A DNA stretch of 64,000 nt from Heterodontus francisci (Eukaryota): contig NC_090377.1 in assembly GCF_036365525.1 (NCBI RefSeq), positions 81,812,024-81,876,023 on the forward strand, written 5' to 3'. Shown piece by piece: positions 1 through 61,900 of this stretch (its first letter is position 1; every line of letters starts with the position of its first letter). The notes under the pieces were generated by a model, which worked only from the letters and a program-made list of their open reading frames with translations, was not told the origin of the DNA and ran no database searches. A program made the position numbers and the translations under genes.

Positions 1-1236
1 TAGTGTTTCTCAGCTCTACCCATACAGATTCCACATCGTCAGAGCTAATATCCTTCCTCACTATTGCGTTAATTTCCTCTTTAACCAGCAGTGCAACTCC
101 ACCGCCTTTTACTTTTTGTCTGTCCTTCCTAAATACTGAATATCCCTGGATGTTCCTTTCCCATCCCTGGTCACCCTGCAGCCATATCTTGGTAATCCCA
201 ACTATTTCATACCCATTTACATCTATTTGCGTGATTAATTCATCCATTTTATTCCGCATGCTCCTCGCATTAAGGCACAAAGCCTTAAGGCTTGTCTTCT
301 TCACATTACTTGTCCCCTTCCCACTATTTTTCACTGTGGCCCTGTTTGATTCTGGCCCTTGATTTCTCTGCCTGTCTCTTTTTTTATTCCCCTTACCGTC
401 TTTTGTTCTTGTCTTGGATCCCTCCTCCTCTGACTCCTTGCAAAGGTTCCCATCCCCCTGCCATTTTAGTTTAAACCCTCCCCAACCACTCTAGCAAATA
501 CTCTCCCTCGGACATCAGTCCTGGTCCTGCCCAGGTGTAACCCGTCCAGTTTGTACTGGTCCCCCCTCCCCCAGAACCGGTCCCAATGTCCCAGGAATCT
601 AAAACCCTCCCCCTCACACCATCTCTTCAGCCACATATTCATCCGATATATCCTGCTATTTCTACTCTGACTAGCACATGGCGCTGGTAGTAATCCTGAG
701 ATCACTACCTTTGAGGTCCCACTTTTCAACTTACTTCCGAACTCCCTAACTGCTTTTAGGACCTCATCCTTTATTTTACCTATGTTGTTTGTACCAATGT
801 GTACCACGACCACTGGCTGTTCACCCTCCCCCTTCAGAATATCCTGTAACCGCTGTGAGACATCCTTGACCCCAGCACCAGGGAGGCAACATACCATCCT
901 GGAGTCTCATTTCCGGCCACAGAAACGCCTGTCTTTTCCCCTTGCAATTGAATCCCCTATTAATATTGGATTACCACACTTTTTACTCCTCGCCTGTGTA
1001 GCAGAGCCAATGATGGTGCAACGAATTAGGCTGTTGCTGCTTTCCCCTGTGAGGCCATTCCCTCCAACAGTATCCAAGGCAGTATATCGGTTTTGCAGGG
1101 GAATAGCCACAGGAGATCCCTGCATTGCCTGCTTAGTCCGCTTCCTCTGCCTGGTGGTCAGCGATTCCCTTCCTGCCTGTGGAGTCTGAGCCTGCGGTAT
1201 GACCACCTCTCTCTACGTGCTATCCACGATACCCTC
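1..1236 (-). mobile_element. CR1 LINE, 5'-truncated within ORF1 (SGNH/GDSL esterase ORF1 plus start of the ORF2 endonuclease); runs off the window
   Basis: ORF 466..897 (CLPGAGVKDV...VVVHIGTNNIG...DGLHL) is the CR1 ORF1 esterase; 907..1206 has PLQNRYTALD and ILIGDSI; 1..310 on the minus strand encodes the APE endonuclease N-terminus. Confidence 0.9.
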
Positions 1237-1319
1237 GCTATTTTCCAATCAAACAGAACCTTGCCCGAATCTAGGGAATTTTGGAAAATTAAAACTAACG
1301 CAACAACTATCTCACTAAC

Positions 1320-6989: not shown

Positions 6990-7084
6990 TATGATGTTTG
7001 ATGCTTTGTTTGATTTAAATTAAATGTTTAAATGTACAGTCACCCTGGCGGCTCTCTGTTTCCCTGCTCTCTCTGTTGATTGTG

Positions 7085-10964: not shown

Positions 10965-11430
10965 AAACAATGTATTTTTATAGGGCCTTTAATAAAACGT
11001 CCCCAGGTGCTTCACAGGAGCATCATAAAACAAAATGACACCAAGCCACATTAAGGAGATATTAGGTCAGATGACCAAAAGCTTGGTCAAAGAGGTAGGT
11101 TTTGAGGAATGTCTTAAGTGAGGTGGAGCGAGGGTATTCCAGAGCTTCGGGCCTAGGTAGCTGAAGGCATGGCCACTAATGATGGAGCAATTAAAATCCG
11201 GGATGCTCAAGTGGCCAGAATTTAAAAAACAGATATCTTTGAGGGTTGTGGAGCTGGAGGAGATTACAGAGATGGGGAATGGCGAGGCAATGGAGGGATT
11301 TGAAAACAAGGATGAGAATTCTAAATTCAAGATGTTGCTTGACTGGGAGCCAATGCAGTTATACGAGCACAGGGGTCATAGGTGTTAAGAGATTTGGTGC
11401 AGGTTACAACACAGGCAGCAGAGTTTTGGA
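10965..11430 (-). mobile_element. L2 LINE 3' fragment
   Basis: Minus strand reads GHAFSYLGPKLWNTL, followed by an L2/DeuSINE-type 3' tail (gaagcacctggggacgtttt). Confidence 0.75.
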
Positions 11431-11454
11431 TATATTCATATTGCTGGTGAAGTG

Positions 11455-11975
11455 GTTATATTTCAATACTGAGATTAACAGTCCATTCAGTGGCTTCAGC
11501 TGATGCAGTGTGAATGGTTGTGATGCCACTAGGAATGGATCACTCAGGGCAAGAGTTAAATATGTCGGCATTGATATGACTTGGATGGCCACAGCCACAA
11601 TTTGAACTGGTCCTTATGTTCCACTTGTGGAGCAAGTGGCCACATCCTCCCTGGCCCATCCTCAAGCAATTGAGTGTTGTCCAGATTTTCCACGGGAGGC
11701 TGAAACCTGGGATTTCACCGCTCTAGTCAGTTACTAGATTGCGGTTGGTGATGTTCGCAGTCAACCAGAAGGCCCGCTATCGAGAGGTGGGGCTGTTGTC
11801 TATCTGTCGGGTGTGGAGTGTGTTCCAGCAGGGGCTACGAGATTTTAGGCAAGTGCATGGGGTGTTTTTGAGGTCCTGTATCAGTGGGAATGCTTTGTTA
11901 GCTGTCAGCCGGCAGCATTCTTTGAGGAGAATGTTTTCCCTGCAGATGTCAAGAGGTTCGGTGTGTGCTAGCACA
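11455..11975 (-). mobile_element. Vingi/Ingi-clade LINE, 3' fragment
   Basis: Minus translation EPLDICRE...CLKSRSPCW and PGFSLPWKIWTTLNCLRMGQGGCGHLLHKWNIRTSSNCGCGHP matches the Ingi/Vingi C-terminal zinc-knuckle region as I recall it. Confidence 0.7.
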
Positions 11976-11999
11976 GTAAGCCACTTGAGCTGTGTTCCA

Positions 12000-12440
12000 G
12001 AAAGGAGGAGAGGTAGATAGATCGATGGAGAAGTTTAGTTAGCGAATTCCAGAGCTTGGGGCTTATGACAGCTTAAGACATAGTGGGGTGAATGAAATCG
12101 GGAATGCACGTGAGGCAAGAATTGGAGGATATAGAGTTACCATACAACTAGACGAAGTTAGAGATTGGGTGGGGTGGGGGGTTGTTGTTGGTAGGTGGCA
12201 GGGAAGGCTATGGAAGGATTTGAACAGGAAGATGATCTTTTTAAGTTCAGGTTGTTGATGGATCGGGAGCCAATGTAGGTCAGCAAGCACAGGGCTTTTG
12301 GATGTATGAGTCTTGGTCTAAATTAGGATATGAACAGCAGAGTTTTGGATGAGCCCATGTTTACAGAGGGTGGAAGTTAGGCAGAATTCATTTCCAGTCA
12401 AGACCTTCTGGACTTGAAATAGTGAGAAAGGGGTGGAGAC
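12000..12440 (-). mobile_element. L2 LINE fragment
   Basis: IQNSAVHIL and LADLHWLPIHQ on the minus strand are typical of the L2 ORF2 C-terminus. Confidence 0.75.
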
Positions 12441-12689
12441 TGGACTGAGTGTAGAGTAGCTACAAAGGTTCAACATAACTTGCTTACGTTTGTACCCTTG
12501 CCAAAGCGACTGATATAGCAGGAAAGAACTCCACTGACGAGGCTTTTGTATTTTTCCATTCCCCGGTTTGTTGAGTGCTGCTGAGTTGACTGATTCTTTG
12601 TGCAATGCTTTCTATCTCTTAATCTGATTGTTGTCAGTTGCTGCAGTTTCAGGTTCATAGTTCCTCTAATTTATCTCCCAAATCAAAGT

Positions 12690-13200
12690 AGTGAGTCCTG
12701 TCTCTAATAGTGGCCGGCCAATCAGCAGGCCGGCAGCTCTCAGTCCCAGTGGTGCCACCAAGATCGGTGGCTACTGCTGGGACTGCACCCAGCAAGAGGA
12801 GCAGCAATGGAGAAGACCCCGGAATGAAGCTAAGTGTGTGGGTCCTCGCCGGGCCCAATCAGCCAGGCCCTGGCAAGGCAAGGGGGTTTAGATGTTTGTT
12901 GGGGGTGGCGGTGGTGGTGTGGGAAAATGTGCTGCCATGGGGAGCCCCATCAGGAGCCCCCCACCCCACAAGAGGCCGTCTGGTTTACCGGGCAGCCTCT
13001 TGAAATCTTAAGCTGTCTGGCCACAGCAGTGGTGGAGGCCCTTAAGTGTAGATTTAATTGGCCGCTTAAGGGCCTTCATTGGCCTGGGGTGGGCCATTTG
13101 TCACCACTGCCGCCACTTGTAACATTGCAGCAGGGGCGGGAAGGCAGCATGAACGGCATCCCCTGCCTCCCTTTTTTTTTTACACCTGCCCCTGCGGGGA
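12690..13200 (-). repeat. GC-rich non-coding interspersed repeat with internal palindromes (probably non-autonomous DNA-transposon derived)
   Basis: Homologous in inverse orientation to 50695-51300; contains ggcccttaag...cttaagggcc. Confidence 0.6.
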
Positions 13201-14610
13201 TACTGCAGCTGAAAGTCCTTTCAGCAATGGATTCTGTGAAAGGAATCTTGCAGAGATCAATAAAGTGCTGCATCAAATTTTAGCTGACAACTGGACTGCA
13301 AGTTGCAAACCGTCATGGCATGGGCAGTTCATGCAAAGAATTCACACAGATGGTTGGAAGGTATAATAGCTATCACTTAGTCTATGGGCAAAATCGCAAA
13401 TTGCCTTCGGTGTTGTGCGATAGTCCTCTTGATCTAGAAGATATTAATAATTCCCATTTTTTTCCTGCATATTTGAATGCTTTACATGCAGTTAGACAGG
13501 CTTTCATCAAGGCTTAGGTCTCGGAGGAAATTTGGACAGCTCTGAAGCATTGTGCAAGACCTTCTGAGACGCAATTTAATTCATGAGATTTGGTGTGTTA
13601 TGCAAGAGAGGGTCATAGGAAATGCCAAGGCCCTGTTAAGGTAATAGGTCATGATAGTAAGACAGTACTCATCAACTATGGTAATTCAAATGTTAAGGTT
13701 CATTCCTCACATTTTGTCGGAATTAATGGCATGATTTTGAACTCTGAGCAGCTGATAGACAGAATCAAGGTGTATTGTACCTCAAGTGCTTGAGTGTTTT
13801 GTGATGAGGGTTCTGAGGAACAGAATATGATAGATCAAGGATGGATAGTGGTAACGTAAGTGATCATGATACACAGGACAGAGCTATCACATTCAAAGGC
13901 CAATTACCCAGTGTGGGTACTCGGGTGACATATATTACAGAGGAGTCTAGTGAATGGAGGGAGGCAACAATTGTGGGATGTGCAGGAAAAGCTACATAAG
14001 AAAAGTTTAAATATTGGTTCAGTGTTCAGGATGTTGGCCAAGTGAGGTCCAGGGACTGGCAGAAAGGAGAGAAAGAGTGGAGAGTAACAAAGCATTGTGC
14101 AAGTACTGATGGTGCGTCTGGAACGGACTCTTGTGTCAGAGAACAACCACATGTCAGGGAAAGACCCTCCGACAGTGCAAGAGGGAGATATCGTAGTAGT
14201 AGATGTAAAAGTGCAAGTAAAGGCCGTAGCTTCAATAGATTAGACACCGACGGTCTCAGAAGAGAACTGAAGAACTAAAATCCTAATGATCATGAACTTT
14301 TGGTGGCTGCCAATAAACTTGAAGATAAACTAATAGGCAAAACTAAGGGAGTTAGATAGGAAAAGGCAGTTTGGAGTTCATTTTGATTCACCAAATAAAG
14401 GGCTAGAAGCTTTGTCACCTAAGTTGATTTGTATTGGGAAAGTCCTTGAGGATGGAACTTATAAGGCTAAAGTGAGGCTAGTTGCTCGGAGTTTTAAGAG
14501 TGACTGGCTGATGCAGGTGTTAGAGTAATTGGAAAAGACATTTTGAAACTTTTTTTTAGCTCTTATGATCACATTTCTTGGAGTTTATATCAATTGACAT
14601 AAAAGCCTGA

Positions 14611-15713
14611 TGTCACGAAAACACGCAATGTCGAATGATGACTTTTAATCCATCGGCTGGAAAACTGCATTACATTTTTTTTAAAGGAACAGATAAAAGG
14701 TGACACTATGCTAGCAGCTAAAGATGGTCACCCCAATTTGCATCACTGTATTCCACATTCCAATGCATTGAGGTGGAGACAAATTGTCTACACCGACCCA
14801 TCAATAACAATGACCTGGGGAATCTGAGTGAACTACCTGTCCTGTTTTCCATTAGCGAGGTGTCAAGGCCATCACCTGAAAATTAGACTGGTGGAGATGA
14901 ACCAGTCAAACCTAATCACTTAAACAATGGGACCCTGGTTGTGAGAAGGGAATTCCTAGACATGGAATGATTAAGTTGCAAGAGGGAATACACACTGGTA
15001 ACCATCATGCTTGAATCACTCAGTGATGGTCATGTGACAGTCCCACCATCTGTGTGCTTAAACTGGTGTTTTCTCTGCAGCAACCAGACAAGCACCAGAT
15101 AGTGACAAGAGAAGAGCCAAGTGGGGTCCATCCTCCCTCCCTTCCCCCCCACCCCCCCCTCCCCTTTCTCATATCCACCTTACAAGCTTTGAACCCTTCC
15201 TGCTGACTGTGACCACCTGGGCATATCCTTACTGCAGACAGAAACTCCTTGAAGGACATCAGACACATTGCTATCTCCAAAAGAACCACCAAATCAGCTG
15301 TGCACATCTTCTAAACGGAAGCCTCAGGACCACCCATAGGAAAGTTGCACGACCACCGAATGCAGCCTGAAGCCAGTTGAGTCACCAACCTCCACAGACT
15401 GTATACCCCTTTTATTTCTCTGTATTTTAATCCACCCAGTCTAACCTTCCCCACTCTGTAACTCAAATGTTGTTAGTGTGAAAGATGGAGCGTATTTTAT
15501 TTTACTTAGATTGGATTAAGTACAATAAAGCTAACCTGTTTGTTTGTTGAACTCAAAACCTGTCTAATTTGGTTATTTTAATAGCCTGTTAACAGTTAAA
15601 CACTCAATTAATTGGCAAGTATATCCACTTCAAAAAGAAATAAACCGGTTGTGGTCAAACAAGGAGAGGGAAAAGAGGGGAGCTCTTCAACTCCCTCTCA
15701 CCTGATTGTAACA
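14611..15713 (+). mobile_element. Solo LTR (TGT...ACA, about 1.1 kb) inserted in the copia RT
   Basis: Splits the RT motif IDIKA/xFLQ; flanks CTGA and CTTA form a 4-bp TSD with one mismatch; AATAAA near the 3' end; related to 43619-44232. Confidence 0.8.
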
Positions 15714-24654: not shown

Positions 24655-27600
24655 GAAAAGCAAAATACTGCGGATGCTGGAAATCTGAAATGAAAACAAG
24701 AAATGCTGGAAACACTCAGCAGGTCTGGCAGCATCTGTGGAGAGAGAAACAGAGTTAACGTTTAAGGTCAACGGCCCTTCTTCAGAACTGGCAATTATTA
24801 GCAATGTAAAAGGTTATAAGCAAGTAAAGTAGGGGTGGGGCAAGAGATAACAAAGGAGAAGGTGCAGATAGGACAAGGTCACAGAATAGCTGACCAGAAG
24901 GTCCTGGAGCAAAGATATGTTAATGGTGTGTTGAAAGACAAAGCATTAGTACAGAAAGGGTGTTAATGGACTGAAAATTGAACAGCCACAAGTACAAACA
25001 TGAAAAAAGCAAACTGAACAAACTAAGATGAAATAAAATAAACAAAAAAAATAACTAAAAATAAAAGTAAAATGAGTGCCCATCATGCTCTGAAATTATT
25101 GAAATCCATGTTCAGTCCGGCAGGCTGTAGTGTGCCTAATCAGTAAATGGGATGCTGTTCCTCGAGCTTGCGTTGATGTTTACTGGAACACTACAGCAAT
25201 CCCAGGACAGAGATGTGAGCATGAGAGCAGGGGGAAGTGTTGAAATGGCAAGCAAACGGAAGCTCGGGGTCCTGCTTGCGGACTGAGCGGAGGTGTTCCG
25301 CAAAGCAGTCACCCAGTCTGCGTTTGGTCTCCCCAATGTAGAGGAGACCACATTGTGAGCAGCGAATACAGTATACTGCACTGAAAGAAGTACAAGTAAA
25401 TCGCTGCTTCACTTGAAAGGAGTGTTTGGGGCCTGGGATAGTGAGGCGAGAAGAGGTAAATGGGCAGGTATTACACCTCCTGCGATTGCAGGGGAAGGTG
25501 CCATGGGAAGGGGATGAGGTGGTGGGGGTAATGTAAGAGTGGACCAGGGTGTCACGGAGGGAACGATCCCTTGCCGTGTATTCACTATACCCTCTGACCT
25601 CCCCCTCTCTGACGCTGAACGTTCTGTACTCAGGAAAGGTCTCCGTTTTATCCCCTTACGCCCCCACCTCAATGAATTTTGTGCTCGGCGTGACGTTGAG
25701 CTCTTCTTCCGTCGCCCCCGCCTCCGGGCTCACTTCTTTGACCAGGAGTCCTCCCCCCGATCAGTAGACCCATTTATCCGCCTCCAGCATTCTCCCTCTA
25801 CCTGGACCCCTCCCCCTGGCATCTTACCCGCTCTTGATCTTTTCATTGAAAACTGTCAGCGAGACATTGTTCATCTCAATTTCTCTGCCCCCCTCACTCA
25901 CTCTAACCTGTCCCCTTCTGAACTTGAGTCACTCAGTTCTCTCAGGTCTAACCCCGACATTGTCATCAAACCTGCAGACAAGGCTGGTGCTGTTGTTGTA
26001 TGGTGTACCGACCTCTACCTTGCAGAGGCTCAGCGCCAACTCTCAGACACTTCTTCCTACTTTCCCCTGGACCATGACCCCACCACCAAACATTAAGCTA
26101 CTGTCCACAGGACTGTCACTGACTTCATCTCCTCTGGAGATCTTCCCTCGACAGCTTCCAAACTCGTCCCGCAACTCCGGACAGCCCACTTCTACCTCCT
26201 TCCCAAAATCCACAAACAGGACTGTCCCGGCAGACCCATTGTGTCAGCCTGTTCCTGCCCCACTGAACTTATTTCTTCCTATCTTGACTCTATCTTTTCT
26301 CCGCTGGTCCAGTCTCTTCCCATCTACATCCGTGACTCTTCTGACGCCCTACGTCATTTTGACAATTTCCAGTTTCCTGGCCCCAACCGCCTCCTCTTCA
26401 CTATGGAAGTCCAATCTCTCTACACCTCCATCCCCCACCAGGACGGTTTGAGGACTCTCCACTTCTTCTTTGAACAGAGGCCCAACCAGTCCCCATCCAC
26501 CACCACCCTCCTCCGCCTGTCTGAACTTGTTCTCACATTGAACAACTTCTCCTTCAACTCCACTGACTTCCTTCGAGTAAAAGGTGTTGCTATGGGTACC
26601 CGCATGGGTCCCAGTTATGCCTTTCTTTTTGTGGGCTATGTCGAACATTCCTTGTTCCAGTCCTACTCGGGCCCCCTCCCTCAACTCTTTTTCCAGTACA
26701 TTGATGACTCTATTGGTGCCGTTTCCTGCTCCCGCCTCGAACTAGAAAACTTCATCAACTTTAGTTCTGATTTCCACCCTTCTCTCACCTTTACATGGTC
26801 GATCTCCGACACTTCCCTTCCTCGACTTCTCTGTTTCCATCTCTGGGGATAGGCTGTCTACTAATATCCATTATAAACCCACCGACTCCCACAGCTACCT
26901 CGACTACACTTCTTCACACCCTGCCTCCTGTAAGGACTCCATTCCATTCTCCCAGTTTCTCCGTCTCTGACACATCTGCTCTGATGCTACCTTTCATGAC
27001 AGCGCTTCTGATATGTCTTCCTGTTTTCCTCAACCGAGGATTCCCCCCCCCCCCCACTGGTTGACAGAGCCCTCAACCGTGTCCAGCCCATTTCCCGCAC
27101 CTCTACCCTCACCACTTCCCCTCCCTCCCAGAACCATGACAGGATTCCCCTTGTCCTCACTTTCCACCCCTTCAGCCTCCATATCCAAAGGATCATTCTC
27201 TGCCATTTCGCCACCTCCAGCGTGATGCCACTACCAAACGCATCTTCCCCTCCCTTCCCCGTCAGCATTCCGAAGGGATCGTTCCCTCCGTGACACCCTG
27301 GTCCACTCCTCCATTACCCCCACCATCTCATCCCCTTCCCACAGCACCTTCCCCTGCAATCGCAGGAGGTGTAATACCTGCCCACTTACCTCCTCTCTCC
27401 TCACTATCCCAAGTCCCAAACACACCTTTCAGGTGAAGCAGCGATTTACTTGTAATTCTTTCAATGTAGTATACAGTATTTGCTGCTCACAATGTGGTCT
27501 CCTCTACATTGGGGAGACCAAACGCAGACTGGGTGACTGCTTTGCGGAACACCTCCGCTCAGTCCGCAAGCAGGACCCCGAGCTTCCGTTTGCTTGCCAT

Positions 27601-28179
27601 TTCAACACTTCCCCCTGCTCTCATGCTCACATCTCTGTCCTGGGATTGCTGCAGTGTTCCAGTGAACATCAACGCAAGCTCTAGGAATAGCATCTCATTT
27701 ACCGATTAGGCACACTACAGCCTGCCGGACTGAACATTGAGTTCAATAATTTCAGAGCATGACGGGCCCCCATTTTACTTTTATTTTTAGTTATTTTTTT
27801 CTTTCTCCTTTTTTCGTTTATTTTATTTTATTTCATCTTTGTTCAGTTTGCTAACCCACTATTTTTTTCATGTTTGTATTTGCGGTTGTTCAATTTTCAG
27901 TCCATTAACACCCTTTCTGTACTAATGCTTTGTCTTTCAACACACGATTAACATATCTTTGTTCCATGACCTTCTGGTCAGCTATTCTGTTACCCTGTCC
28001 TATCTGCACCTTCTCCTTTGTTATCTCTTGCCCCACCCCCACTTTACTTGCTTATAACCTTTTACATTTCTAACATTTGCCAGTTCTGAAGAAGGGTCAC
28101 TGACCTGAAACGTTAACTCTGCTTCTCTCCACAGATGCTGCCAGACCTGCTGAGTGTTACCAGCATTTCTTGTTTTTAT
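24655..28179 (+). mobile_element. Penelope-like element (RT plus GIY-YIG) with an inverted duplicated 3' arm
   Basis: IKPADKAG, FYLLPKIHK, GVAMGTRMGP, QYIDD and GIY-YIG region VVYSICCSQCGLLYIGETKR; 24655-25572 is a minus-strand copy of about 27273-28179; 13-bp TSD ttctttattctct at 24642 and 28180. Confidence 0.92.
28082..28118 (+). ncRNA. Minimal type I hammerhead ribozyme motif in the PLE pseudo-LTR
   Basis: agtt-CTGAAGA-a-gggtc(act)gacct-GAAAC-GTT-aact: core boxes, stem II, stem I agtt/aact, loopless palindromic stem III (AACGTT). Confidence 0.7.
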
Positions 28180-29842
28180 TTCTTTATTCTCTTGATGGTT
28201 TTCGGATGTGTGTAATTGACCCCTCTTAGCTTGGAATGTATCCTTTTGTCCTTAACTGACAGTAAGACATTTTGAATGTACAGGGCCAGGTGGACTGGTT
28301 TTCAGTGGCCATTTTGAAGCACACTGTCTACATTTTTTTGAAAGGAAAAGTCAATTTTTATAACTCGTCAGTTTGGGTTCTGTATTTTCATCGCTGCATT
28401 TCTCGTGTGTGTGACAACAGGCAGATAAAATTCACCTGATTAACTGGAAACATTTCTCAATGAGTCTTGGTCTGTGTTAGCATAAGGCTTTCAATAAGGT
28501 TCTTAAACATCAAGGTCAAGTGTCAGATTTATTAAGCATATATACATGCAAGAGCATGAAGCATACACTTTGAACTTAAAATAATACCTGATGGTTTCAT
28601 TGAGGATTCAAATGCATGATTGTCCTTAACCTGGTGTACAGGCTGATCAGGCCTGAGTGAATTATAGATATCTATACAAAGTGCCACGCTCTATTAATTT
28701 CTTTCACTTAAAAAGGTCTATAATAATATAGTATCTGTAAAAGTGACCATGAAGCTGTTGGATTCGCATAGAAAACCCAACTTGTTCAATAATCTTTCTG
28801 GGGGAGGAAATCTGGTTTTCTTACCCAGTCTGTCCTATCCATGAATCCAGCCCCACACCAATGTGGTTGCTTCTTAACTGCCCTCTGAAATGACACAGCA
28901 AGTCACTCAATTGTATCACTACAAAAAAGAAACAAACCAGATGGATCACTCATCTGTGACTTGGGTGTCAAATTCTGTCATCGTGAAGGCACACTCAGCC
29001 CAATCTATTCTGCAAAGTTATCCTCACTAACATTTGGGGACTAATGCCAAAGTTGAAGAACTGTCCCACAGACTAGGCAAGCAACAGCCTGATGCATTAT
29101 CATACTCACAGAATCATGCCTATCTCAGACTCCTCCACCATCATCCCTTGGCACATCCTGACCCATCAGCAGGACAAACCCACTAGAGGCTGGGGTACAA
29201 TGGAGTACAGTCAGTTGGTAGTGGTCCTGGGATCCTCAGCGTTGACTCTAAACCCCATGAAGTCTTGTGGCTTTAGGTTAAGCATGGGCAAAGAATCCTC
29301 CTGTCAATTAGCACTTACCACCCTCCTTCAGCCAATGAATCAGTCCTCTTCCATGTTGAACACCACTTAAAGGAAGCACTGAGGGTGGTAGGACAAAGAA
29401 CGTACTGTGGGATGTCCTCTTTGATATTCTATGGCACTATGACTGTTGGGTGGGATAGATTAAGACCAGATCAAAACTCGGCTCTTGAGTGGCTCTGGTC
29501 CATCAGCAGCAGCAGAATTGGATTTTGCCATAATTAACCTCATGGCCTGGCATATCTATCACTGCTCCATTACTGTAAAGGCAGGTGGGTACTCCTGGTT
29601 TAGTGAAGAGTATACAAGAGCAGCACCAGGCATACCTTAAACTGAGGTGCCAACCTAGTGCAACACAGGACTACAAGCATGCTAAATAGCAGAACAATAT
29701 GTTATCAACAGAGCTAAGTGATCCACAGCCAACAGATCAGGTGAGAGCTCTGCAGTCCTGCCACATCCAATTGCAAATGGTGGTGAATCATTTAAGCAAT
29801 GAATTGGAGGAAGAGGTTACATGAACTTCCCCATCCTCGATA

Positions 29843-31060
29843 ATAAAAATAGAAAATGCTGGCAATACTCAGCAGATCAAGCAGCATCTGTGAGAGAGAA
29901 ACGGTTAACATTTCAGATTGGTGACTTTTCATTAGAACTGGGAAAAGTTCGAAATGTATGAGGTTTTAAGCAAGTGAAAGCGAGGAGGGTGATCAGAAGA
30001 ATAAAAGGGAAGGTTTGTGATAGGGTGGAAGGCAGGAGAAATTAGTTATCAAAAGGGTTTGTGGTCAAAGCCCAAGTGGTGATGGGACAAGTCAACAAAC
30101 AAACTATGTGGCTAGGAGAGGTGTGAATGGCAAAATGATGAAAAGCTGCTGCCTCAAAAGAAAGCGAAAAACTAGAGAGCAAAACCAGCATTTGCATGGA
30201 ATGTTGCCATGGGAAGAGAAAGGTGTGGACCAGAGTGTCTTGGAGGGAACAGCTGAAAGGGGAGGGCACGAGAAGATGCATTTGTTGATGGGGTCACGCT
30301 GAAGTTTGTAAAAATGGCGGAAGATGATCTGTTGCAGATGGACGCCAGTGGGGTGGAAGGTGAGGAAAAGGGGAATCCTATCTTGGTTCTGGGAGGGAGG
30401 GGAAGGGGTGAGAACAGAAATGTGGGAAATGCGACTGACATGGTCGAGGGCCCTATCAACCATGGTCGGGGCAGAGGAGAGGGTAATCCTCTGTTGATGA
30501 GAAAGGAAGACATATCCGAAGTGCTGGCATGGAAGGGTAGCATCATCAGAACAGATGCAATGGAGAAACTGGGAGAATGGAACAGAGTCCTTACAGGAAG
30601 CAGGGTGCAAAGGAAGTGTAGTCAAGCTAATTGAGGAAGTCAGTGGGTTTATAGTGAATATTTGTTGGGAGCCTGTCCCCAGGAATGGAGACGGAGAAGT
30701 CCGGGAGGGGAAGGGAAGAGTTGGAAATGGAACATGTAAGGGTGACAGAAGGGTGAAAATTGGAAGCAAAGTTGACTTTTGAATTTTCTAGTCTGGGGCG
30801 AGAGCAGGAAACTGCACCGATAGTCATCACTGTGCCAGGAAAAGAGGTGAGGAAGGGAGCCCTGAGTGGGATCTGAACAAGAAATGTTCCACATATCCCA
30901 CAAAAAGGCAGGCATAGCTCGGATCCATGTAGGTACACATTGCAACACCCTCTTATTTGAAGGTAGTGAGTGGAGTTGAAGAAGTTATTCAATGTGAGAA
31001 CAAGTTCAGCCAGGCAGAGGAGGGTGGTGATGGATGGAGACTAGTTTAGTCTCTTCAAGG
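29843..31060 (-). mobile_element. Older 5'-truncated Penelope-like element
   Basis: Minus strand NNFFNSTHYLQ, TNIHYKPTD, HPASCKDSVPFSQFL; pLTR with a decayed hammerhead motif (agttctaatgaaaagtc...tgaaatgttaac). Confidence 0.85.
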
Positions 31061-31174
31061 AAGAATTGCCCAGGTATGTCCTGCCCACAAAAAGCAGGAA
31101 AAATCCAATCTGGCCAATTACTGCCCCGTCATTCTATTCTCGATTGTTAACACTGTCGCGACACCTTCCATCAC

Positions 31175-32748
31175 TTGCAAAGCATTAAGGTAGATAAGTC
31201 CCCAGGGCCTGATGGGATCTACCCTAGAATACTGAGGGAGGCAAGGGAAGAAATTGCTGGGGCCTTGACAGAAATCTTTGCATCCTCATTGGCTACAGGT
31301 GAGGTCCCAGAGGACTGGAGAATAGCCAATGTTGTTCCTTTGTTTAAGAAGGGTAGCAAGGATAATCCAGGAAATTATAGGCCTGTGAGTCTTACGTCAG
31401 TGGTAGGGAAATTATTAGAGAGGATTCTTCGGGACAGAATTTACTCCCATTTGTAACAAACGAACTTATTAGCGAGAGACAGCATGGTTTTGTGAAGGGG
31501 AGGTCGTGTCTCACTAACTTGATTGAGTTTTTTGAGGAAGTGACAAAGATGATTGATGAAGGAAGGACAGTGGATGTTATCTATATGGACTTCAGTAAAG
31601 CCTTTGACTAGGTCCCTCATGGCAGACTGATACAAAAGGTGAAGTCACATGGGATCAGAGGGGCGCTGGCAAGATGGATACAGAACTGGCTCAGTCATAG
31701 AAGACAGAGGGTAGCAGTGGAAGGGTGCTTTTCTGAATGGAGGGATGTGACGAGTGTTGTCCTGCAGGGATCAGTGCTGGGACTTTTGCTGTTTGTAGTA
31801 TATATAAATGATTTGGAGGAAAATGTAGCTGGTCTGATCAGTAAGTTTGCGGACGACACAAAGGTTGGTGGAGTTGAGGACAGTGATTAGGATTGTCAGA
31901 GGATACAGCAGGATATAGATCGGTTGGGCGGAGAAATGGCAGATGGAGTTTAATCCGGACAAATATGAGGTAATGCATTTTGGAAGGTCTAATGCAGGTG
32001 GGAGGTATACAGTAAATGGCAGAACCCTTAGGAGTATTGACAGGCAGAGAGATCTGGGCGTACAGGTCACAAAGTGGCAACGCAGATGGATAAGATAGTC
32101 AAGAAGGCATATGGCATGCTTGCCTTCATCGGTCGGGGCATAGAGTATAAAAATAGGCAAGTCATGCTGCAGTTGTACAGAACTTTAGTTAGGCCACACT
32201 TAGAATATTGCGTGCAATTCTGGTCGCCACACTACCAGAAGGACGTGGAGGCTTTGGAGAGGGTTCAGAAGAGATTTGCCAGGATGTTGCCTGGTCTGGA
32301 GGGCATTAGCTATGAGGAGAGGTTGGATAAACTCTGATTGTTTTCACTGGAATGACGGAGGTGGAGGGGCGACATGATAGAGGTTTACAAAGTTATGAGC
32401 AGCATGGACAGAGTGGATAGTCAGAAGCTTTTTCCCAGGGTGGAAGAGTCAGTTACTAGGGGACATAGGTTTAAGGTGAGAGGAGCAAAGTTTAGAGGGG
32501 ATGTGCGAGGCAGGTTCTTTACACAGAGGGTGGTGAGTGCCTGGAACTTGTTGCCAGGGGAGGTGGTGGAAGCAGGTACCATAGAGACGTTTAAGAGGCA
32601 TCTTGACAAATGCATGAATAGGATGGGAATAGAGGGATACGGACCCCGGAAGTGCAGAAGGTTTTAGTTAAGGCAGGCATCAAGATCGGCACAGGCTTGG
32701 AGGGCCGAATGGCCTGTTCCTGTGCTGTACTATTCTTTGTTCTTGTTC
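31175..32748 (+). mobile_element. 5'-truncated CR1 LINE (RT and 3'UTR)
   Basis: KSPGPDGIYPRIL, KFADD, RPHLEYCVQFWSP; 3' end gggccgaatggcctgttcctgtgctgtactattctttgttcttgttct. Confidence 0.93.
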
Positions 32749-33013
32749 TATCAAGTGGCACTTACTCAGCAAACAACTGCTCATGGATACTCACTTTGGT
32801 TTCCACCAGGGCCACTTGGCTCTGTCCCCCATTACAGCCTTGGTCCAAAGCTGGACAGATGTGCTGAATTCCATGAGTGAGTGTGACTACCCTTGATATG
32901 AAGGCAGCTTTTGACTCTGTGTGGCATCATGGAACCCTTGTAAAACTGAATGCAATGGGGCTGGGGGGGAGAACTCTCCCATGACTGCAGTCATATTTTG
33001 CACAACAGAAGAT

Positions 33014-42348: not shown

Positions 42349-42653
42349 GCGGCACAGTGGCGCAGTGGTTAGCATCGCAGCCTCACAGCTCCAGGGACCC
42401 GGGTTTGATTCTGGGTACTGCCTGTGCGAGTTTGCAAGTTCTCCCTGTGACTGCGTGGGTTTTCGCCGGGTACTCCGGTTTCCTCCCACAGCCAAAGACT
42501 TGCAGGTGATAGGTAAATTGCCCCTAGTGTAGGTAGATGGTAGGGAATATGGGATTACTGTAGGGTTAGTATAAATGGGTGTTTGTTGGTCGGCACAGAC
42601 TCGGTGGGCCGAAGGGCCTGTTTCAGTGCTGTATCTCTAAATAAATAAATAAA
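42349..42653 (+). mobile_element. HE1-type V-SINE
   Basis: Near-identical to 1320-1659 apart from short internal deletions; (TAAA)n tail. Confidence 0.9.
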
Positions 42654-42726
42654 CTATATGGCTGAGAAATTTAAGAGTTGGAATATGTTTAAAAAGACAC
42701 AACTGAGTATAGATGGAAATAACTGA

Positions 42727-46902: not shown

Positions 46903-47698
46903 CTTCTTTCTTCATTGGCCTCCTTGTCTCGAGAGACAATTGGTAAGCACCTAGAGGTGGTCAGTGGTTTGTGAAGCAGCGCCTGGAGTGGCTATAAAGG
47001 CCAATTCTAGAGTGACCGGCTCTTCCACAGCTGCTGCAGATAAAATTGGTTGTCGGGGCTGCTACACAGTTGGCTCTCTCCTTGCACTTCTGTCTTTGTT
47101 CCTGCCAACTGCTAAGTCTCTTCCGCTCGCCACTCTTTAGCCCCGCCTTTATGGCTGTCCGCCAGCTCTGGCGATCACTGGCAACTGACTCCCACGACTT
47201 GTGGTCAATGTCACAGGACTTTATGTCGCGTTTGCAGATGTCTTTAAAGCGGAGACATGGACGGCCGGTGGGTCTGATGTCAGTGACGAGCTCACTGTAC
47301 AATGCGTCCTCGGGGATCCTGCCATCTTCTATGTGGCTCACATGGCCAAGCCATCTCAAGCGCCGCTGGCTCAGTAGGGTGTATATGCTGGGGATGTTGG
47401 CTGCCTCAAGGACTTCTGCGTTGGAGATACGGTCCTGCCACCTGATGCTAAGGATTCTCCGTAGGCAGTGAAGATGGAATGAGTTGAGACGTCGCTCTTG
47501 GCTGACGTACGTTGTCCAGGCCTCGCTACCGTAGAGCTAGGTACTGAGGACAGAGGCTTGATACGATCGGACTTTTGTGTTCCGTGTCAGTGAGCCATTT
47601 TCCCACACCCTCTTGGCCAATCTGGACATAGCAGCGGACACCTTTCCCATGCGCTTCTTGATTTCTGCATCGCGAAACAGGTTACTGATAGTTGAGCC
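46903..47698 (-). mobile_element. 5'-truncated RTE LINE
   Basis: RWLGHVSHIEDGRIP...C-x2-C...HSRIGLYSH; (GAA)n-like tail; about 12-bp imperfect TSD taattattgcta/taattactgcaa. Confidence 0.9.
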
Positions 47699-47820: not shown

Positions 47821-49958
47821 TCTACAAGAAAGCCCCCAGCGAGTTAACATCCGTAGCAATTAAAGCAGCCAGAAGCACTGCACAAAGAACAGCCAGGCGC
47901 TGCGCAAATGACCCTATGCAGTCATATTCAGCTGGCCTCAGACACCGGAAACATCAGAGGAATGTATGATGGCATTAAGAGAACTTTTGGGCCAACCATC
48001 AAGAAGATCGCCCCCCCTCAAATCTAAATCAGGGGACACAATCACTGACCAACGCAAGCAAATGGACTGCTGGGTTCAGCACTACCTAGAACTGTACTCC
48101 AGGGAGAACGTTGTCACTGAGACCGCCCTCAATGCAGCCCAGCCTCTACCAGTCATGTATGAGCTGGACGTACAGCCAACAAAATCAGAACTCAGTGATG
48201 CCATTGATTCTCTAGCCAGTGGAAAAGCCCCTGGGAAGGGCGGCATTACCCCTGAAATAATCAAGAGTGCCAAGCCTGCTATACTCTCAGCACTACATGA
48301 ACTGCTTTGCCTGTGCTGGGACGAGGGAGCAGTACCTCAGGACATGCGCGATGCCAATATCATCACCCTCTATAAAAACAAAGGTGACTGCAACAACTAC
48401 CGTGGAATCTCCCTGCTCAGCATAGTGGGGAAAGTCTTTGCTCGAGTCGCTTTGAACAGGCTCCAGAAGCTGGCCGAGCGCATCTACCCTGAGGCACAGT
48501 GTGGCTTTCGTGCAGAGCGATCGACCGTTGACATGCTGCTCTCCCTTCGTCAGATACAGGAGAAATGCCGCGAACAACAGATGCCCCTCTACATTGCTTT
48601 CATTGATCTCACCAAAGCCTTTGACCTGGTCAGCAGACGTGGTCTCTTCAGACTACTAGAAAAGATCGGATGTCCACCAAAGCTACTAAGTATCATCACC
48701 TCATTCCATGACAATATGAAAGGCACAATTCAGCATAGTGGCACCACATCAGACCCCTTTCCTATCCTGAGTGGCGTGAAACAGGGCTGTGTTCTCGCAC
48801 CCACACTGTTTGGGATTTTCTTCTCCCTGCTGCTCTCACATGCGTTCAAGTCTTCAGAAGAAGGAATTTTCCTCCACACAAGATCCGGGGGCGGGTTGTT
48901 CAACCTTGCCCATCTAAGAGCGAAGACCAAAGTACGGAAAGTCCTCATCAGGGAACTCCTCTTTGCTGACTATGCTGCTTTAACATCTCACACTGAAGAG
49001 TGTCTACAAAGTCTCATCGACAGGTTTGCGGCTGCCTGCAACGAATTTGGCCTAACCATCAGCCTCAAGAAAACGAACATCATGGGACAGGACGTCAGAA
49101 CTGCTCCATCCATCAATATTGGCGACCACGCTCTGGAAGTGGTTCAAGAGTTCACTTACCTAGGCTCAACTATCACCAGTAACCTATCTCTAGATGCAGA
49201 AATCAACAAGCGCATGGGAAAGGCTTCCACTGCTATATCCAGACTGGTCAAGGGAGTGTGGGAAAATGGCGCACTGACATGGAACACAAAAGTCCGAGTG
49301 TATCAAGCCTGTGTCCTCAGTACCTTGCTCTATGGCAGCGAGGCCTGGACAACGTATGTCAGCCAAGAGCGACGTCTCAATTCATTGCATCTTCACTGCC
49401 TCCGGAGAATACTTGGCATCAGGTGGCAGGACCGTATCTCCAATACAGAAGCCCTCGAGGTGGCCAACATCCCCAGCTTGTACACCCTACTGAGTCAGCG
49501 GCGCTTGAGATGGCTTGGCCATGTGAGCCGCATGGAAGATGGCAGGATCCCCAAGGACACATTGTACAGTGAGCTCGCCACTGACATCAGACCCACTGGC
49601 CGTCCATGTCTCTGCTTTAAAGACGTCTGCAAACGCGACATGAAGTCCTGTGACATTGATCACAAGTCGTGGGAATCAGTTGCCAGCGATTGCCAGAGCT
49701 GGCGGGCAGCCATAAAGGTGGGGCTAAAGTGTGGCGAGTGGAAGAGGCTTAGCAGTTGACAGGAAAAAAGACAGAAGCGCAAGGGGAGAGCCCACTGTGT
49801 AACAGCCCCGACAAACAGATTTTTCTGCAGCGCCTGTGGAAGAGTCTGTCACTCTAGAATTGGCCTTTATAGCCACTCCAGGCGCTGCTCCACAAACCAC
49901 TGACCACCTCCAGGCGCTTACCCATTGTCTCTCGAGACATGGAGGCCAAAGAAGAAGA
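47821..49958 (+). mobile_element. 5'-truncated RTE LINE with long TSD
   Basis: RT ORF; aagaagaaga tail; TSD actctctcgtatgctttctcaatc (47799) and actctcacgtatgctctctcaatc (49958). Confidence 0.93.
47966..49759 (+). pseudogene. RTE reverse transcriptase ORF (597 aa); catalytic FADD changed to FADY, endonuclease domain missing
   Basis: NYRGISLLS, AQCGFR, FIDLTKAFD, GVKQGCVLAP, LLFADYAAL, FTYLGS. Confidence 0.9.
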
Positions 49959-58620: not shown

Positions 58621-58917
58621 ACAAATACACGAATAGGATGGGAATAGAGGGATACGGTCCCCGGAAGTGCAGAAGGTTTTAGTTTAGACAGGCATCAAGA
58701 TTGGCATCCAGTTCCGAAGAAGGGTCACTGACCCGAAACGTTAACTCTGCTTCTCTTTCCACAGATGCTGCCAGACCTGCTGAGTGATTCCAGCATTTCT
58801 TGTTTTTGTTTCAGATTTCCAGCATCCGCAGTATTTTGCTTTTATTTATCAAGATTGGCGCAGGCTTGGAGGGCCGAATGGCCTGTTCCTGTGCTGTACT
58901 GTTCTTCTCTTTGTTCT
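58621..58917 (+). mobile_element. CR1 3' tail inserted next to the first catalytic Asp (GAID) of the Harbinger transposase
   Basis: Near-identical to 32607-32748 once the PLE mini-insert is removed. Confidence 0.88.
58706..58847 (+). mobile_element. 142-bp Penelope pLTR-end insertion beginning with a hammerhead motif; 12-bp TSD
   Basis: atcaagattggc at 58694-58705 and 58848-58859; insert matches 28080-28179 plus the tail seen reversed at 24655-24690. Confidence 0.9.
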
Positions 58918-61900
58918 ACATTATCTTGTGTGAACTTGGCTATTTTCGTGAACTGAAAGAGATCTCACTCCCTCAATCTGCAGCTGGTGTGTGATCGCAA
59001 GCTGTGCGTCCTGCAAGTGCACAGCCGTTAACCTGCAGCAGTCATAATTCCTTCATTCTACTAGAGTCCTCTGTTTCACCTAATATTTGATGCACCATGA
59101 CAATTCAGGCTGGCTACTGGCCGCCAAGGATTATCGCTTTATGACGTGGCTTGCAGCTTATGGCTCTAGTCTGGAACCCATGCACACGTGCACAGCAGGC
59201 CTCCAGTGAAAGCCCTTCTGCCACGAGGAACATTACAGAACACACCATCAGCGTCCACTGACACTGTCTCCACTGCCTGGACTGCTCTGGGGGAGCCCTT
59301 TAGCAATTAGCTAAATAGGTGCCTAAATCGTGGTCGTAGAATGCACAATCTGGCTATAATAAGGGAACAGCCATTGCTTCCGCCTAGTATGAGAGGGAGA
59401 AAATGGAGTAGGAAAAAGAAGTACTACAAGAAGCGGAGGAAGCAATGTAGATGTGGGCTCCAAACTCTCTGATCAAATAAGTCATGAGCGATGCCACGAA
59501 CATCATCCACACCTCCCCAGTTGTCAACGGCCCACACTCCTTACCTTTCCTCTATCACTGACTACACCTCTTTCCAACAATACAAAAATGGAAAAAAACC
59601 TATTCCCATTCCACAATTGCACTCATTACATATTACCCAGTGGCTGCAACATGTGTGGTCGAAAGCTGCTGTCCGGCAGTTGAGGAGATGGCAATGCCTT
59701 GGAGGATGACCTCAAACAGCTGTGGGTCGAGAGATCCCTGCATAAGACTGCATCATCTCAGCCTGGGTTGTCTGGATGACCGGCAGCAGCAAGAAATCTG
59801 GTGGAAGGTTGGGAGCAGGAATGCTGTCACCATGAGAGAGGGCTGCAGGTTCATGTCCCAGGGTGGCATATCTCAAATCCTGCTGATCTGTTGGAGAGCA
59901 GATTGATGGACTGCTGTGATGCTGCTTTGAACAGTGCTTTCCGGAGCCACAATGGCAGCAGTCTGAGCATTTGTGCAGCTGCGACATCAACCATCAGACT
60001 CTGCATAATGTTGGGTTTCACAGGTGTGCTGAGGGAGGTAACTACCCATTCCATGTTGATTAGGATGGATTTCAAGCTCTCTGCAAACCTACTGTGCCAA
60101 GTTGATGTTGGACTCCTCCATGCTCTGTGATGTTGTGTGCAGGCTTTCTAGCGTACCAAGCATTTGGTTGTGTGCTTCCATCAATCTCTTTCTGTAAACT
60201 GGCCCATCAAAGTCCTCATCTGACTGCATTGCAACAAAACTAACATGCCCTTGGCAAGTTGGCACCTGCACTGTCCTTTCCCCTGCCCTGGCTCCTGTAC
60301 ACTTATGCCTGGTGTCTCACCTGGTGCAAATCTGTCCTTTGAGCCTCTAACAAACACACACTGTCGGTCTCTAAGTTGGTGGCTGTAGTTGTAGGTCCGA
60401 GTGACAGTGTCTCCTCTTCTTCACTGTCGTCTTCATCTGACTCAGAGATTTCCAATTCTTAGATATATGAAAGGCGAGGGGAGAGGAGAAAGTAAGAAGT
60501 GTGTGCTTACAACATCTGCAGTTTGAGAGTCAGAAGAGCTTGTGCGATAAGGGAGAAGTTGGAAGAGAGCAGGATGATTAGGTATGCAATTACTGTCATC
60601 ATTGGACCCTCCAGCCCCTCCAATGGCCAATGTCTCAGCGGTGCTCTTTCCCAAGGTGGCCAGCAATATCTCCTCCACGGTAGTTAAAACATGCAGCATG
60701 CTTGTTGTCCTTCAGTTCTTTCCTGCTGCCTCCCTTTTATGTGCTACCTTCTGCAAGAAATAGAGAAGTGTGTCAGTGAGTGTTCTGCAATATGCTGCGG
60801 TGATGTGTCTGTCGTATTTGAATAGCTGGCAGTGTGTTTGAGCTGTGAATTATAGGTGCTAGGCTTGCACCATTGCCAAGTGTCTGAGTGAGGTAAAGCA
60901 TATGAATTGTGAAGGATTGTGTACTTGTGTTGAGAGAGTTTATTGGCGGATGGGTAAAGCGGATGTAGAGAATTAAACAGTAAATGAAGCCAGTAATGCA
61001 GTTGTAGATATGCCATTTGAAAATTGAACTTATTCACCTTGACATCTCATTTCAGATTGATAAACTCCATCATTTCTTGCAACCACAATACAATGCTCCT
61101 CCCTTTTAAGAGGTGCAGGCCACCTTTTAAGTAGCATTAGTTGCTCACGATATTAAGCCCGCTGTTGATCTGTGCAGACAGTTGATCGCACGTGTAGTGC
61201 TGGCTGCATGCAGCAATAATTTAAGACAGCAAACAACATGAATATACTACCTGCTCACAGTGCAAGGGCGTGGGTTGATTGCATCTCGCAATCCCCATTA
61301 TTTTTGGGGGCTATCGAATTTAACCCCCTGAACTTGACACTTTGCCATGTTTAACTATAGGAAGTTGTGGCTATATCAAGACCAGATGTTGGATAAGCAG
61401 TCTGACAACACAAAAAGTTGGTAAAGGGAGTGTTGAAGGAGGTGATAGTGAGATGATAACAGCGGTTTTGAAAGGGAAATGAGACACAACCGGAGGAGAG
61501 AGTGAATCATTTATAAGATCTTTTGGCATGGACCATGGAAGGGAAGTTGCATGGCCAACTGTTTACAGGAAATGGGATTAAAGAAGTAGCAGGTGAGTCT
61601 CAAGATTAAGTCAGAGTTCAAGAAGGGAGGTAACAAGAGAAATATGAAAGACATGGGTTCAAGGATGAACATATGGGAGGTTTGGTTTGGGGAAGCAGCT
61701 GAAGTAGCTAAACGGATGGTATATTCCTGACAGAAGTTCTTAAACTCCAAACACCTCTTTGAGATGGAATATAAGGAGATGGTTAATAGTGGAGATTAGA
61801 AGCACAGGGTTAGTTTTGCTTTCTGGCATTATCTTGAAATAGAGGGTCATTTGGCAGATGACATTGAGGCCAGATGACTTTTGATGCAGTCCAGTCAGAC

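What the first reader, a model, noticed from the sequence alone, without database searches (positions are those of the whole stretch)
58694..58859. Ribozyme-headed 142-bp Penelope mini-element with a perfect 12-bp TSD
Seen: a CR1 tail is split by a 142-bp insert flanked by atcaagattggc. The sister CR1 has the empty site (atcaagatcggc, single copy, near 32680). The insert has no coding sequence and starts about 4 nt before a minimal hammerhead (agtt-CCGAAGA-agggtcactgaccc-GAAAC-GTT-aact), then runs to the PLE 3' tail. Known: PLE pseudo-LTRs carry minimal hammerheads that probably act as dimers. Inference: this could be a discrete non-autonomous ribozyme-bearing SINE-like or retrozyme-like unit mobilised by the PLE RT/GIY-YIG, rather than a random truncation. 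The core reads CCGAAGA here versus CUGAAGA at 28086.
Basis: partly seen in the sequence, partly recalled or inferred. Interest (0 to 1): 0.7.

Follow-up and report, generated by a model that had tools for sequence, protein, structure and literature searches.

The report
Penelope copies stop at RNA start
This 142-base insertion is a real, young stub of a Penelope-like jumping gene, one of thousands that begin at almost the same base, which likely marks where the element's RNA starts rather than a separate self-copying ribozyme element.

Summary
In detail: a 142-bp insert (58706-58847), a perfect 12-bp TSD and a minimal hammerhead. The predicted 5' peak is real. In 98 genomic copies picked by the 3' tail alone, 35 begin within 6 nt at the first bases of hammerhead stem I, about 100 times the background stop rate; 2 begin near the ribozyme cut. 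But it is not a family of its own. CCGAAGA is also in long copies, the insert's 135-nt core is identical to two longer copies, no private allele exists, and the head is ragged. Best reading: the Penelope RT primes at the internal 'tail' site near the mRNA's 5' end and runs off that end, likely a TATA/initiator start. Evidence: TATAA at -29, a G excess before +1, and 268 copies that re-copy the head from +1. No RNA start data exist. Copies that already crossed the ORF rarely stop there (3 of 19), hinting at a second, endless template. The scan reached the same reading before on other DNA, in this genome and others.

The parts
58621..58705 (+). Host LINE 3' tail fragment, left half (CR1-type by recall), ending in the 5' TSD copy
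   Evidence: 93% over 85 nt to the sister at 32606-32690; sister encodes RVT_1
58694..58705 (+). Target-site duplication, 5' copy (12 bp)
58706..58708 (+). 3-nt junction filler (ATC), not matching the long element's upstream TGT
58709..58847 (+). PLE-derived segment, rel 0 to +138 (rel 0 = C at 58709; inferred RNA start = A at 58710); youngest-subfamily haplotype
   Evidence: 135/135 identical to long copies L081 and L111; haplotype shared by 7 long and 9 short copies
58710..58746 (+). Minimal type I hammerhead: stem I 58710-13/58743-46, core CCGAAGA 58714-20 (U4C), stem II 58722-34, GAAAC-GTT 58735-42; predicted cut 58742|58743
   Evidence: sequence, fold, min-HHR definition in PMC4209133; activity untested
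58810..58847 (+). PLE 'tail' between the two 3' end sites (about +101 and +135-138), the inferred RT start sites
   Evidence: 74 of 100 main pieces end at +135-137 (anchored on this tail); 25 of 36 inverted pieces end at +95-105; two RT starts in PMC11167929
58848..58859 (+). Target-site duplication, 3' copy (12 bp)
58860..58918 (+). Host LINE 3' tail fragment, right half
   Evidence: 90% over 72 nt (58848-58918) to the sister
32679..32690 (+). Empty site in the sister LINE (single copy, CpG intact)
27226..28182 (+). Longer, older-subfamily PLE copy: GIY-YIG end with a CX4CXXC linker, 3' UTR, TATAA, CTGAAGA hammerhead, ends near +101
   Evidence: GIY-YIG PF01541 weak, E 0.052
24656..25572 (-). 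Second long older-subfamily PLE copy (CTGAAGA), ending at +134

Best explanation
The insert is a stub copy of an ordinary endonuclease-bearing Penelope-like retrotransposon, likely made when its reverse transcriptase primed at the internal 'tail' site about 135 nt from the mRNA's 5' end and ran off that end, which is likely a TATA/initiator transcription start at the first base of the hammerhead. Shown: the stub, its TSD, its identity to long copies, the pile-up of 5' ends at rel 0 to +5, the two 3' end sites about 34 nt apart, and tandem loci in which hammerhead plus tail lead into the ORF. Inferred, step by step: (1) in a tandem locus the upstream unit's 3' UTR supplies TATAA at -29 and a YYAGTT initiator, so the mRNA begins at stem I; (2) the protein binds near the tail/ORF junction and starts internally, as measured in vitro for the anole PLE; (3) it copies about 135 nt to the capped end; (4) the cDNA end is joined to the second nick with microhomology, filler or re-copied head bases, giving a TSD of mostly 9-14 bp; (5) the stub lacks the upstream TATA and the downstream ORF segment, so it is likely dead on arrival. 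Every PLE subfamily has shed such stubs afresh. The ribozyme rides along uncut.
For: Peak: 35 of 98 tail-anchored copies start at rel 0..+5, hazard 0.113/nt against about 0.001/nt upstream of -20; 26 of 62 among non-inverted copies; 22 of 36 independent inverted pieces start at -5..+7. The same peak shows in diverged copies under 88% identity: 12 of 40 at -3..+7. No peak at the cut: 2 of 98 at +30..38, matching PMC11167929, where uncut RNA is the dominant substrate. Shared alleles: no significant long/short difference at 15 variable sites; no private allele. Promoter-like motif: TATAA at -29 in L082 and in that register in 43 of 59 long copies; YYAGTT at +1 in 9 of the 12 older long copies listed as TCAG/CCAG/CTAG/TTAG variants and in all young subfamilies. 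A TATA-Inr pair was also proposed for a rotifer pLTR (PMC3846280). End at +1: before +1, G is in about 2,500 short copies against about 1,190 A and 350 T (counts, corrected with 30-locus samples). 268 copies carry CCGA directly before +1, against about 13 by chance (GC 0.449). In 30 of 30 of these the re-copied piece starts at +1..+5 and never upstream. Tandem leader-to-ORF loci exist: 1,735 exact matches (L082). No spliced-junction copies for the one donor tested (0 matches).
Against: No RNA 5'-end data: all 23 runs listed were contigs, and laying 4 of them showed no start places and no clean splice joint. Of 30 copies with the tail-to-ORF junction, only 3 of the 19 that reach +5 stop at 0..+5, against 35 of 64 tail-anchored copies (Fisher p 0.0035). 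So a single mRNA class starting at +1 cannot make all long copies; a second template class (read-through multimers, circles, or strand transfer) must be added. A lone extra G, the clean cap mark, is seen in only 1 of 13 TSD-resolved G-headed loci; 6 have the G inside the TSD and 6 at the end of longer filler. The focal insert has C, not G, at rel 0. The same bases read as a 3' splice site (CTAAY...YAG), and in D. virilis the intron ends at helix I while the TSS lies about 120 nt upstream and is TATA-less (PMC4209133, PMC2377424). Older subfamilies have TTAAAA rather than TATAA. Re-copied fillers could be made by host repair; they locate the DNA end, not the enzyme.
Confidence: 0.66

Rival explanations
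1. The boundary is a 3' splice site of a 5'-UTR intron, and a splicing intermediate or by-product whose 5' end lies at the acceptor (+3) is the template.
For: CTAAY, a pyrimidine run and YAG|TTC are conserved across young and old subfamilies. A donor-like TG|GTCAGC lies about 100 nt upstream. In D. virilis the intron end maps to the 5' end of helix I (PMC4209133). +3 ties with +1 as the commonest start, 10 of 100 each.
Against: 0 genomic copies carry the spliced junction for that donor (other donors untested). 15 of 100 copies start at 0 or +1, several with AG or CAG not explained by the TSD (L076, L113, L115). Re-copy junctions use AG microhomology, which needs +1/+2 in the template. No peak at the branch-point-like A near -8.
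Confidence: 0.12
2. Discrete non-autonomous SINE-like or retrozyme-like family with its own master copies, mobilised in trans by the PLE protein.
For: Sharp 5' peak, near-uniform length, TSDs, very high copy number. All 30 best BLAST loci share the head TCCAG. A tandem 381-bp hammerhead array exists at L030.
Against: The one search set was chosen by likeness to the query. Unbiased samples show a ragged head. All main haplotypes are shared with long copies and there is no private allele. Ends are not at the ribozyme cut. No tRNA head or Pol III A/B box. The insert is a monomer.
Confidence: 0.04
3. The RT stalls at a sequence or structure near stem I on a long RNA, so these are ordinary 5' truncations with a hot spot.
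For: Stops are also somewhat raised across the hammerhead body (+6..+29: 0.009/nt, 10 of those 17 at inversion junctions) and at -20..-1 (0.012/nt). 5' truncation is the PLE norm (PMC8557442).
Against: An RT moving 3' to 5' has already unwound stems I and II when it reaches +5. The same sequence stops only 3 of 19 copies that had already crossed the ORF. Re-copied heads never include bases upstream of +1 (0 of 30).
Confidence: 0.08
4. An unknown nuclease, or the PLE protein itself, cuts a longer RNA (or trims the cDNA) at rel 0/+1 during integration.
For: It would give a fixed end without a promoter. The youngest subfamily has GUC just before +1.
Against: That triplet is GCC, GCT or TCC in other subfamilies that show the same peak, and no hammerhead fold places a cut there. 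It does not explain the G excess or the TATAA spacing.
Confidence: 0.1

Closest known systems
EN+ Penelope-like elements with pLTR, inverted 5' copy and 30-40-bp tail (Neptune/Nematis-type linker; PMC8557442 and PMC3846280, passages read)
   Same: RT (RVT_1, E 1.3e-06) then GIY-YIG (weak) with a CX4CXXC linker; partial and full tandems of about 3.29 kb; inverted upstream pieces in 36 of 98 copies; 34-nt tail; TSDs
   Different: These papers describe variable 5' truncation and solo pLTRs ascribed to recombination or deletion. Here about a third of young copies share one 5' boundary, and many carry TSDs.
PAc (Poseidon of Anolis carolinensis) internal RT initiation (Frangieh 2024, PMC11167929; parts 1-2 of 4 read)
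   Same: Two RT start sites bracketing the tail, just downstream of the hammerhead; extension from both strands; uncut RNA used as template
   Different: In vitro templates had artificial 5' ends; the text read reports no genomic 5'-end peak (its Fig. S2 was not seen). There the ORF starts inside the hammerhead, here about 170 nt downstream.
[quoted passage not shown]
   Same: No helix III, palindromic 15.2-16.2, extra nucleotide after A9, G10.1-C11.1 pair; mostly dispersed single motifs 'probably related to truncated PLEs'
   Different: The core carries U4C (CCGAAGA), fixed in the younger subfamilies. U4C lowers activity in vitro yet allowed viroid infectivity (PMC3088659, passage).
Non-LTR retrozymes (Li, Clavereau, Pollet, bioRxiv 10.64898/2026.07.22.740005; part 1 of 5 and passages read)
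   Same: Non-coding, type I hammerhead, derived from PLE pLTRs
   Different: Defined as tandem repeats with two or more hammerhead units. This insert is a monomer with a TSD. L030 (381 bp x 3.3) does fit that definition structurally.
D. virilis Penelope promoter (Schostak 2008, PMC2377424; parts 1-3 of 4 read)
   Same: Promoter and TSS lie in the pLTR of a partial tandem; 34-bp repeat at the ORF start
   Different: TATA-less Inr/DPE promoter, TSS at 371 and intron 416-491 upstream of the hammerhead; here the inferred TSS abuts stem I with a TATA-like box at -29.

Membership tests
EN+ PLE insertion (fragment) | Sequence continuous with an RT + C-terminal GIY-YIG element | tested here: met
   core identical to long copies; L082 RVT_1 E 1.3e-06, just under the curated cut-off; GIY-YIG E 0.052 on a decayed copy
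EN+ PLE insertion (fragment) | pLTR / partial tandem and optional 30-40-bp tail | tested here: met
   L082; 1,735 leader-ORF junctions; ends at about +101 and +135-137
EN+ PLE insertion (fragment) | Target-site duplication of variable length | tested here: met
   12 bp here; found in 31 of the short copies without an inversion among 76 short copies examined, 6-17 bp, mode 14 (a few 6-8-bp calls may be chance)
Neptune/Nematis clade of PLEs | CX2-5CxxC linker between RT and EN | tested here: met
   CNRRRCNTC in 27226-27684; motif definition from PMC8557442
Neptune/Nematis clade of PLEs | RT phylogeny | not tested
   no reference PLE proteins were fetched
Minimal type I hammerhead | Core C3-U4-G5-A6-N7-G8-A9 | tested here: not met
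   U4 is C (CCGAAGA); older subfamilies have CTGA
Minimal type I hammerhead | Stems I and II, GAAA, palindromic 15.2-16.2, extra nucleotide, NUH triplet | tested here: met
   4-bp stem I, 5-bp stem II, AAC-GTT, GUU
Minimal type I hammerhead | Self-cleavage as a dimer or with protein help | not testable with these tools
   no genomic peak at the cut (2 of 98)
Non-LTR retrozyme | Tandem array of two or more hammerhead units | tested here: not met
   single unit between TSDs; met only by the unrelated locus L030
Non-LTR retrozyme | Unit-length circular RNA formed by self-cleavage | not testable with these tools
   only contigs available; a monomer with one hammerhead cannot give a unit circle
SINE / discrete non-autonomous family | Own master lineage with diagnostic variants absent from the autonomous partner | tested here: not met
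   0 private alleles in 42 short vs 23 long copies; shared haplotypes
SINE / discrete non-autonomous family | Pol III head (tRNA-like, A/B boxes) | tested here: not met
   (box patterns recalled)
SINE / discrete non-autonomous family | Fixed 5' terminus | tested here: inconclusive
   a peak of 6 nt width, but ragged, with variable filler

The most novel reading that the evidence does not exclude
The stubs are the Penelope counterpart of retroviral strong-stop DNA: RT starts near the capped 5' end, reaches +1, and then either integrates (stub), realigns on the template end like telomerase and re-copies the first 8 nt (268 copies, up to three rounds), or moves onto an endless template (the 3' pLTR repeat, or a hammerhead-made circle) and copies the ORF. 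That would explain how pseudo-LTRs and tandems are regenerated, why second-pass copies rarely stop at +1 (3 of 19 vs 35 of 64), and what the hammerhead is for.
Probability: 0.2. Interest if true: 0.75.

Novelty: new variant of a known kind. Interest (0 to 1): 0.42.

Why it matters
The insert itself is one of very many dead stubs. [quoted passage not shown] Tens of thousands of near-identical copies give an in vivo read-out: RT starts at two tail sites, templates are uncut by the ribozyme, one template class likely ends at a promoter start, and another does not. This makes a direct test possible (map caps, look for circles, run TPRT on both). It also warns annotators that such stubs will look like a ribozyme SINE or retrozyme monomer. 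I did not find the 5'-end peak described in seven searches (Creative Commons PMC and bioRxiv only) or in the parts of seven papers read; supplements were not read. Other agents of this scan reported the same pattern.

Tried and rejected
BLAST of the insert against the genome: all 30 loci shared the exact head, but the set is selected by likeness to the query, so it was not used for the breakpoint test. CCG as a private variant: rejected. CTG at 28086 as mere CpG decay: possible for single copies, but it travels with other old-subfamily alleles. Ribozyme cut as the 5' end: rejected. Spliced cDNA from the donor near -100: 0 matches. Branch-point stop: no peak. RNA evidence: 23 runs listed, all contigs; 4 laid on L082, with no start places and no GT-AG joint among the 15 joints shown, 14 more not shown; uninformative either way. 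Rfam: no hammerhead hit, four chance matches. Folding z-scores near zero, expected for a minimal motif. Linkage of upstream and tail markers in 59 long copies is mostly tight, so frequent switching between subfamilies is not seen, but subfamilies of different age would rarely meet. A first regex found nothing through my error and was corrected. Look-up of earlier findings by sequence was empty.

Full report
Observation. The 12-mer ATCAAGATTGGC occurs twice in the window, at 58694-58705 and 58848-58859, around a 142-bp insert. The host is a 157-bp 3' fragment of a LINE whose sister at about 31150-32750 has the site once and encodes an RT (the name CR1 is recalled). Both TSD copies carry T where the sister has a CpG, so that change predates the insertion. 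I number the element from the C at 58709 (rel 0). The hammerhead runs from +1 to +37 and its predicted cut is +33|+34. The 42-mer folds into stems I and II but no better than shuffles; Rfam has no hit. The window lies in a 6.0-Gb genome; that it is a cartilaginous fish is my impression from recalled repeat types and comes from no call.

Parent element. Long copies lead through a 3' UTR to an ORF with RT (RVT_1, E 1.3e-06) and a GIY-YIG end (weak hit) preceded by a CX4CXXC linker, the Neptune/Nematis mark in PMC8557442 (passages). At L082 a pLTR (from -389) runs through hammerhead and tail into the ORF. That junction has 1,735 exact matches, and lists show tandems spaced about 3.29 kb. So hammerhead plus tail is both the element's 3' end and the 5' leader of the next unit, as in the anole and rotifer PLEs (PMC11167929; PMC3846280 passages).

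Unbiased breakpoint test. BLAST with the insert returned 30 loci that all share its head, but that is selection by likeness. I therefore anchored on a 35-nt piece of the 3' tail: 33,969 exact matches. I took the first 100 in positional order on contig C1 and dropped two segmental duplicates (L047, L127). Of 98 copies, 35 start at rel 0..+5, 6 at -20..-1, 23 further upstream (five of these run off a 1.5-kb flank), and 34 at +6..+99. The stop rate is 0.113 per nt in the peak and about 0.001 upstream of -20. Two copies start at +30..38. Among 62 copies without an inversion, 26 are in the peak and 1 near the cut. Inverted upstream pieces give a second sample: 22 of 36 start at -5..+7, and 25 of 36 end at +95..105, about 34 nt before the main 3' ends (+135..137 in 74 of 100). 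Diverged copies under 88% identity show the peak too, 12 of 40. Caveats: one chromosome arm, young copies ending at the outer tail site, and a few nt of uncertainty from microhomology.

Not a family of its own. CCGAAGA is in 21 of 24 long copies and 25 of 36 short ones with that base; none of 15 variable sites differs between long and short. The insert's core is 135/135 identical to L081 (5' end at -1303) and L111. No allele is in 3 or more of 42 short copies and absent from 23 long ones. Markers in 59 long copies (a set enriched for CCG by my patterns) sort into an old CTGA series, a middle CCGA series and a young CCGA series, to which the insert belongs. Genome-wide, the 29-nt head has 32,398 exact matches; 14,653 continue 12 nt upstream in the young long form, about 1,600 more are other long forms by extrapolation from 30-locus samples, which leaves roughly 10,000-15,000 young stubs (estimate). 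Only 1,362 matches have CCAG; of 30 sampled, 13 were long and 6 of the 17 short ones had the insert's TCCAG. No tRNA head or Pol III box was found.

Why the ends pile up there. TATAA starts 29 nt before the A at +1 and sits in that register in 43 of 59 long copies; older families have TTAAAA. +1 lies in YYAGTT, an initiator-like word (consensus recalled). Before +1, G has 2,585 matches (29 of 30 sampled are short), A or T together 2,579 (about 46 A and 54 T in the 100 listed; 12 of 16 sampled T copies are a long subfamily). G is thus about twice A and several times T, as a reverse-transcribed cap would give, but a lone extra G appears in only 1 of 13 TSD-resolved loci, and the focal insert has none. 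268 copies have CCGA directly before +1, about 20 times chance. In 30 of 30 the re-copied piece starts at +1..+5, in 18 it extends beyond the four letters demanded, and L261 has three rounds. This is what realignment through an AG microhomology at a template end gives. Host repair could write the same fillers, but the cDNA end would still be at +1. Junctions such as L253 (0..290 joined to 0..104) and L243 look like jumps from that end.

Result against the simple model. Among 30 copies with the leader-ORF junction, 11 end downstream of +5, 3 stop at 0..+5 and 16 continue upstream. That is 3 of 19 against 35 of 64 (p 0.0035; 3 of 18 and p 0.0065 without a tandem duplicate). This argues against a sequence stall, since the sequence is the same. 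It also shows that long copies mostly come from a template without an end at +1: read-through multimers, circles as proposed in PMC4209133, or strand transfer. I cannot tell these apart.

Splice rival. The same bases look like a branch point and acceptor, and in D. virilis the intron ends at helix I with the TSS about 120 nt upstream (PMC4209133; PMC2377424). Against it: no copy with the spliced junction for the best donor, starts that keep AG or CAG outside the TSD, and no branch-point peak. RNA runs were contigs only and decided nothing.

Ribozyme. U4C departs from the core; it lowers activity in vitro but allowed viroid infectivity (PMC3088659 passage). It is fixed in the recently most prolific subfamilies, and templates appear uncut, which fits the finding that cleavage is not needed for insertion in vitro (PMC11167929).

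Literature and earlier notes. Read: PMC11167929 parts 1-2 of 4; PMC4209133 parts 1-2 of 4; PMC2377424 parts 1-3 of 4; bioRxiv 10.64898/2026.07.22.740005 part 1 of 5 and passages; passages of PMC8557442, PMC3846280 and PMC3088659. No supplements were read; Fig. S2 of PMC11167929 (genomic ends) could already show such a peak. Seven searches did not show a report of it. After forming my reading (stated) I found that other agents of this scan reached the same one in this and other genomes; these notes are not independent evidence.

Verdict. Real feature; a dead PLE stub with a non-random 5' boundary, not a SINE or retrozyme. RNA-start run-off 0.66. Interest 0.42, resting on what the population says about PLE replication.

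Noticed in passing
L030:391-1639 (G000:C16:9650527-9651775): Tandem array of a 381-bp unit x 3.3 (98% matches) inside a 32-bp satellite: promoter-like region from about -105, hammerhead, tail and first ~105 nt of ORF. It fits the structural definition of a non-LTR retrozyme and starts at rel 0.
   Followed up: partly
L030, L228, L229, L241, L245, L253: Junctions cluster at ORF position about +260 to +290, joined to the pLTR or to the head; may mark an RNA 3' end or protein footprint.
   Followed up: no
L082 (G000:C1:8645130-8649964, minus strand): A pLTR-ORF copy in which ORF position about -776 is joined directly to the head at +2, lacking the GIY-YIG part and 3' UTR; looks like a jump from the template end.
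   Followed up: partly
window 58765-58847: ATG frame after a pyrimidine-CAG; in the long element it closes after 30 codons, and several acceptor-like words precede the main ORF start near +172.
   Followed up: no
3' junctions of L031-L130: Many copies carry short A/T additions (ATT, ATTAT, ATATT) between tail and TSD that do not match the element's continuation.
   Followed up: no
window 24656-28182: Two long older PLE copies in head-to-head arrangement spanning about 3.5 kb, one ending at +134 and the other near +101, the usual inverted structure at large scale.
   Followed up: partly
window 29842-29941 (-): Diverged PLE family copy (75%) with a decayed hammerhead (CTAATGA) and TTAAAA upstream.
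   Followed up: no
window 46908-47687 and 49177-49956: 780-bp inverted repeat, 91% complementary, 1,489 nt apart; not examined.
   Followed up: no
window 1297-1657, 6634-7007, 42359-42656: Three copies of a SINE-like repeat with a LINE-like tail similar to the host tail.
   Followed up: no
G000:C1:23221473-23228093, C1:104038118-104044740, C2:19305760-19309085: Full tandems with a period of about 3.29 kb, candidate multimer templates.
   Followed up: no
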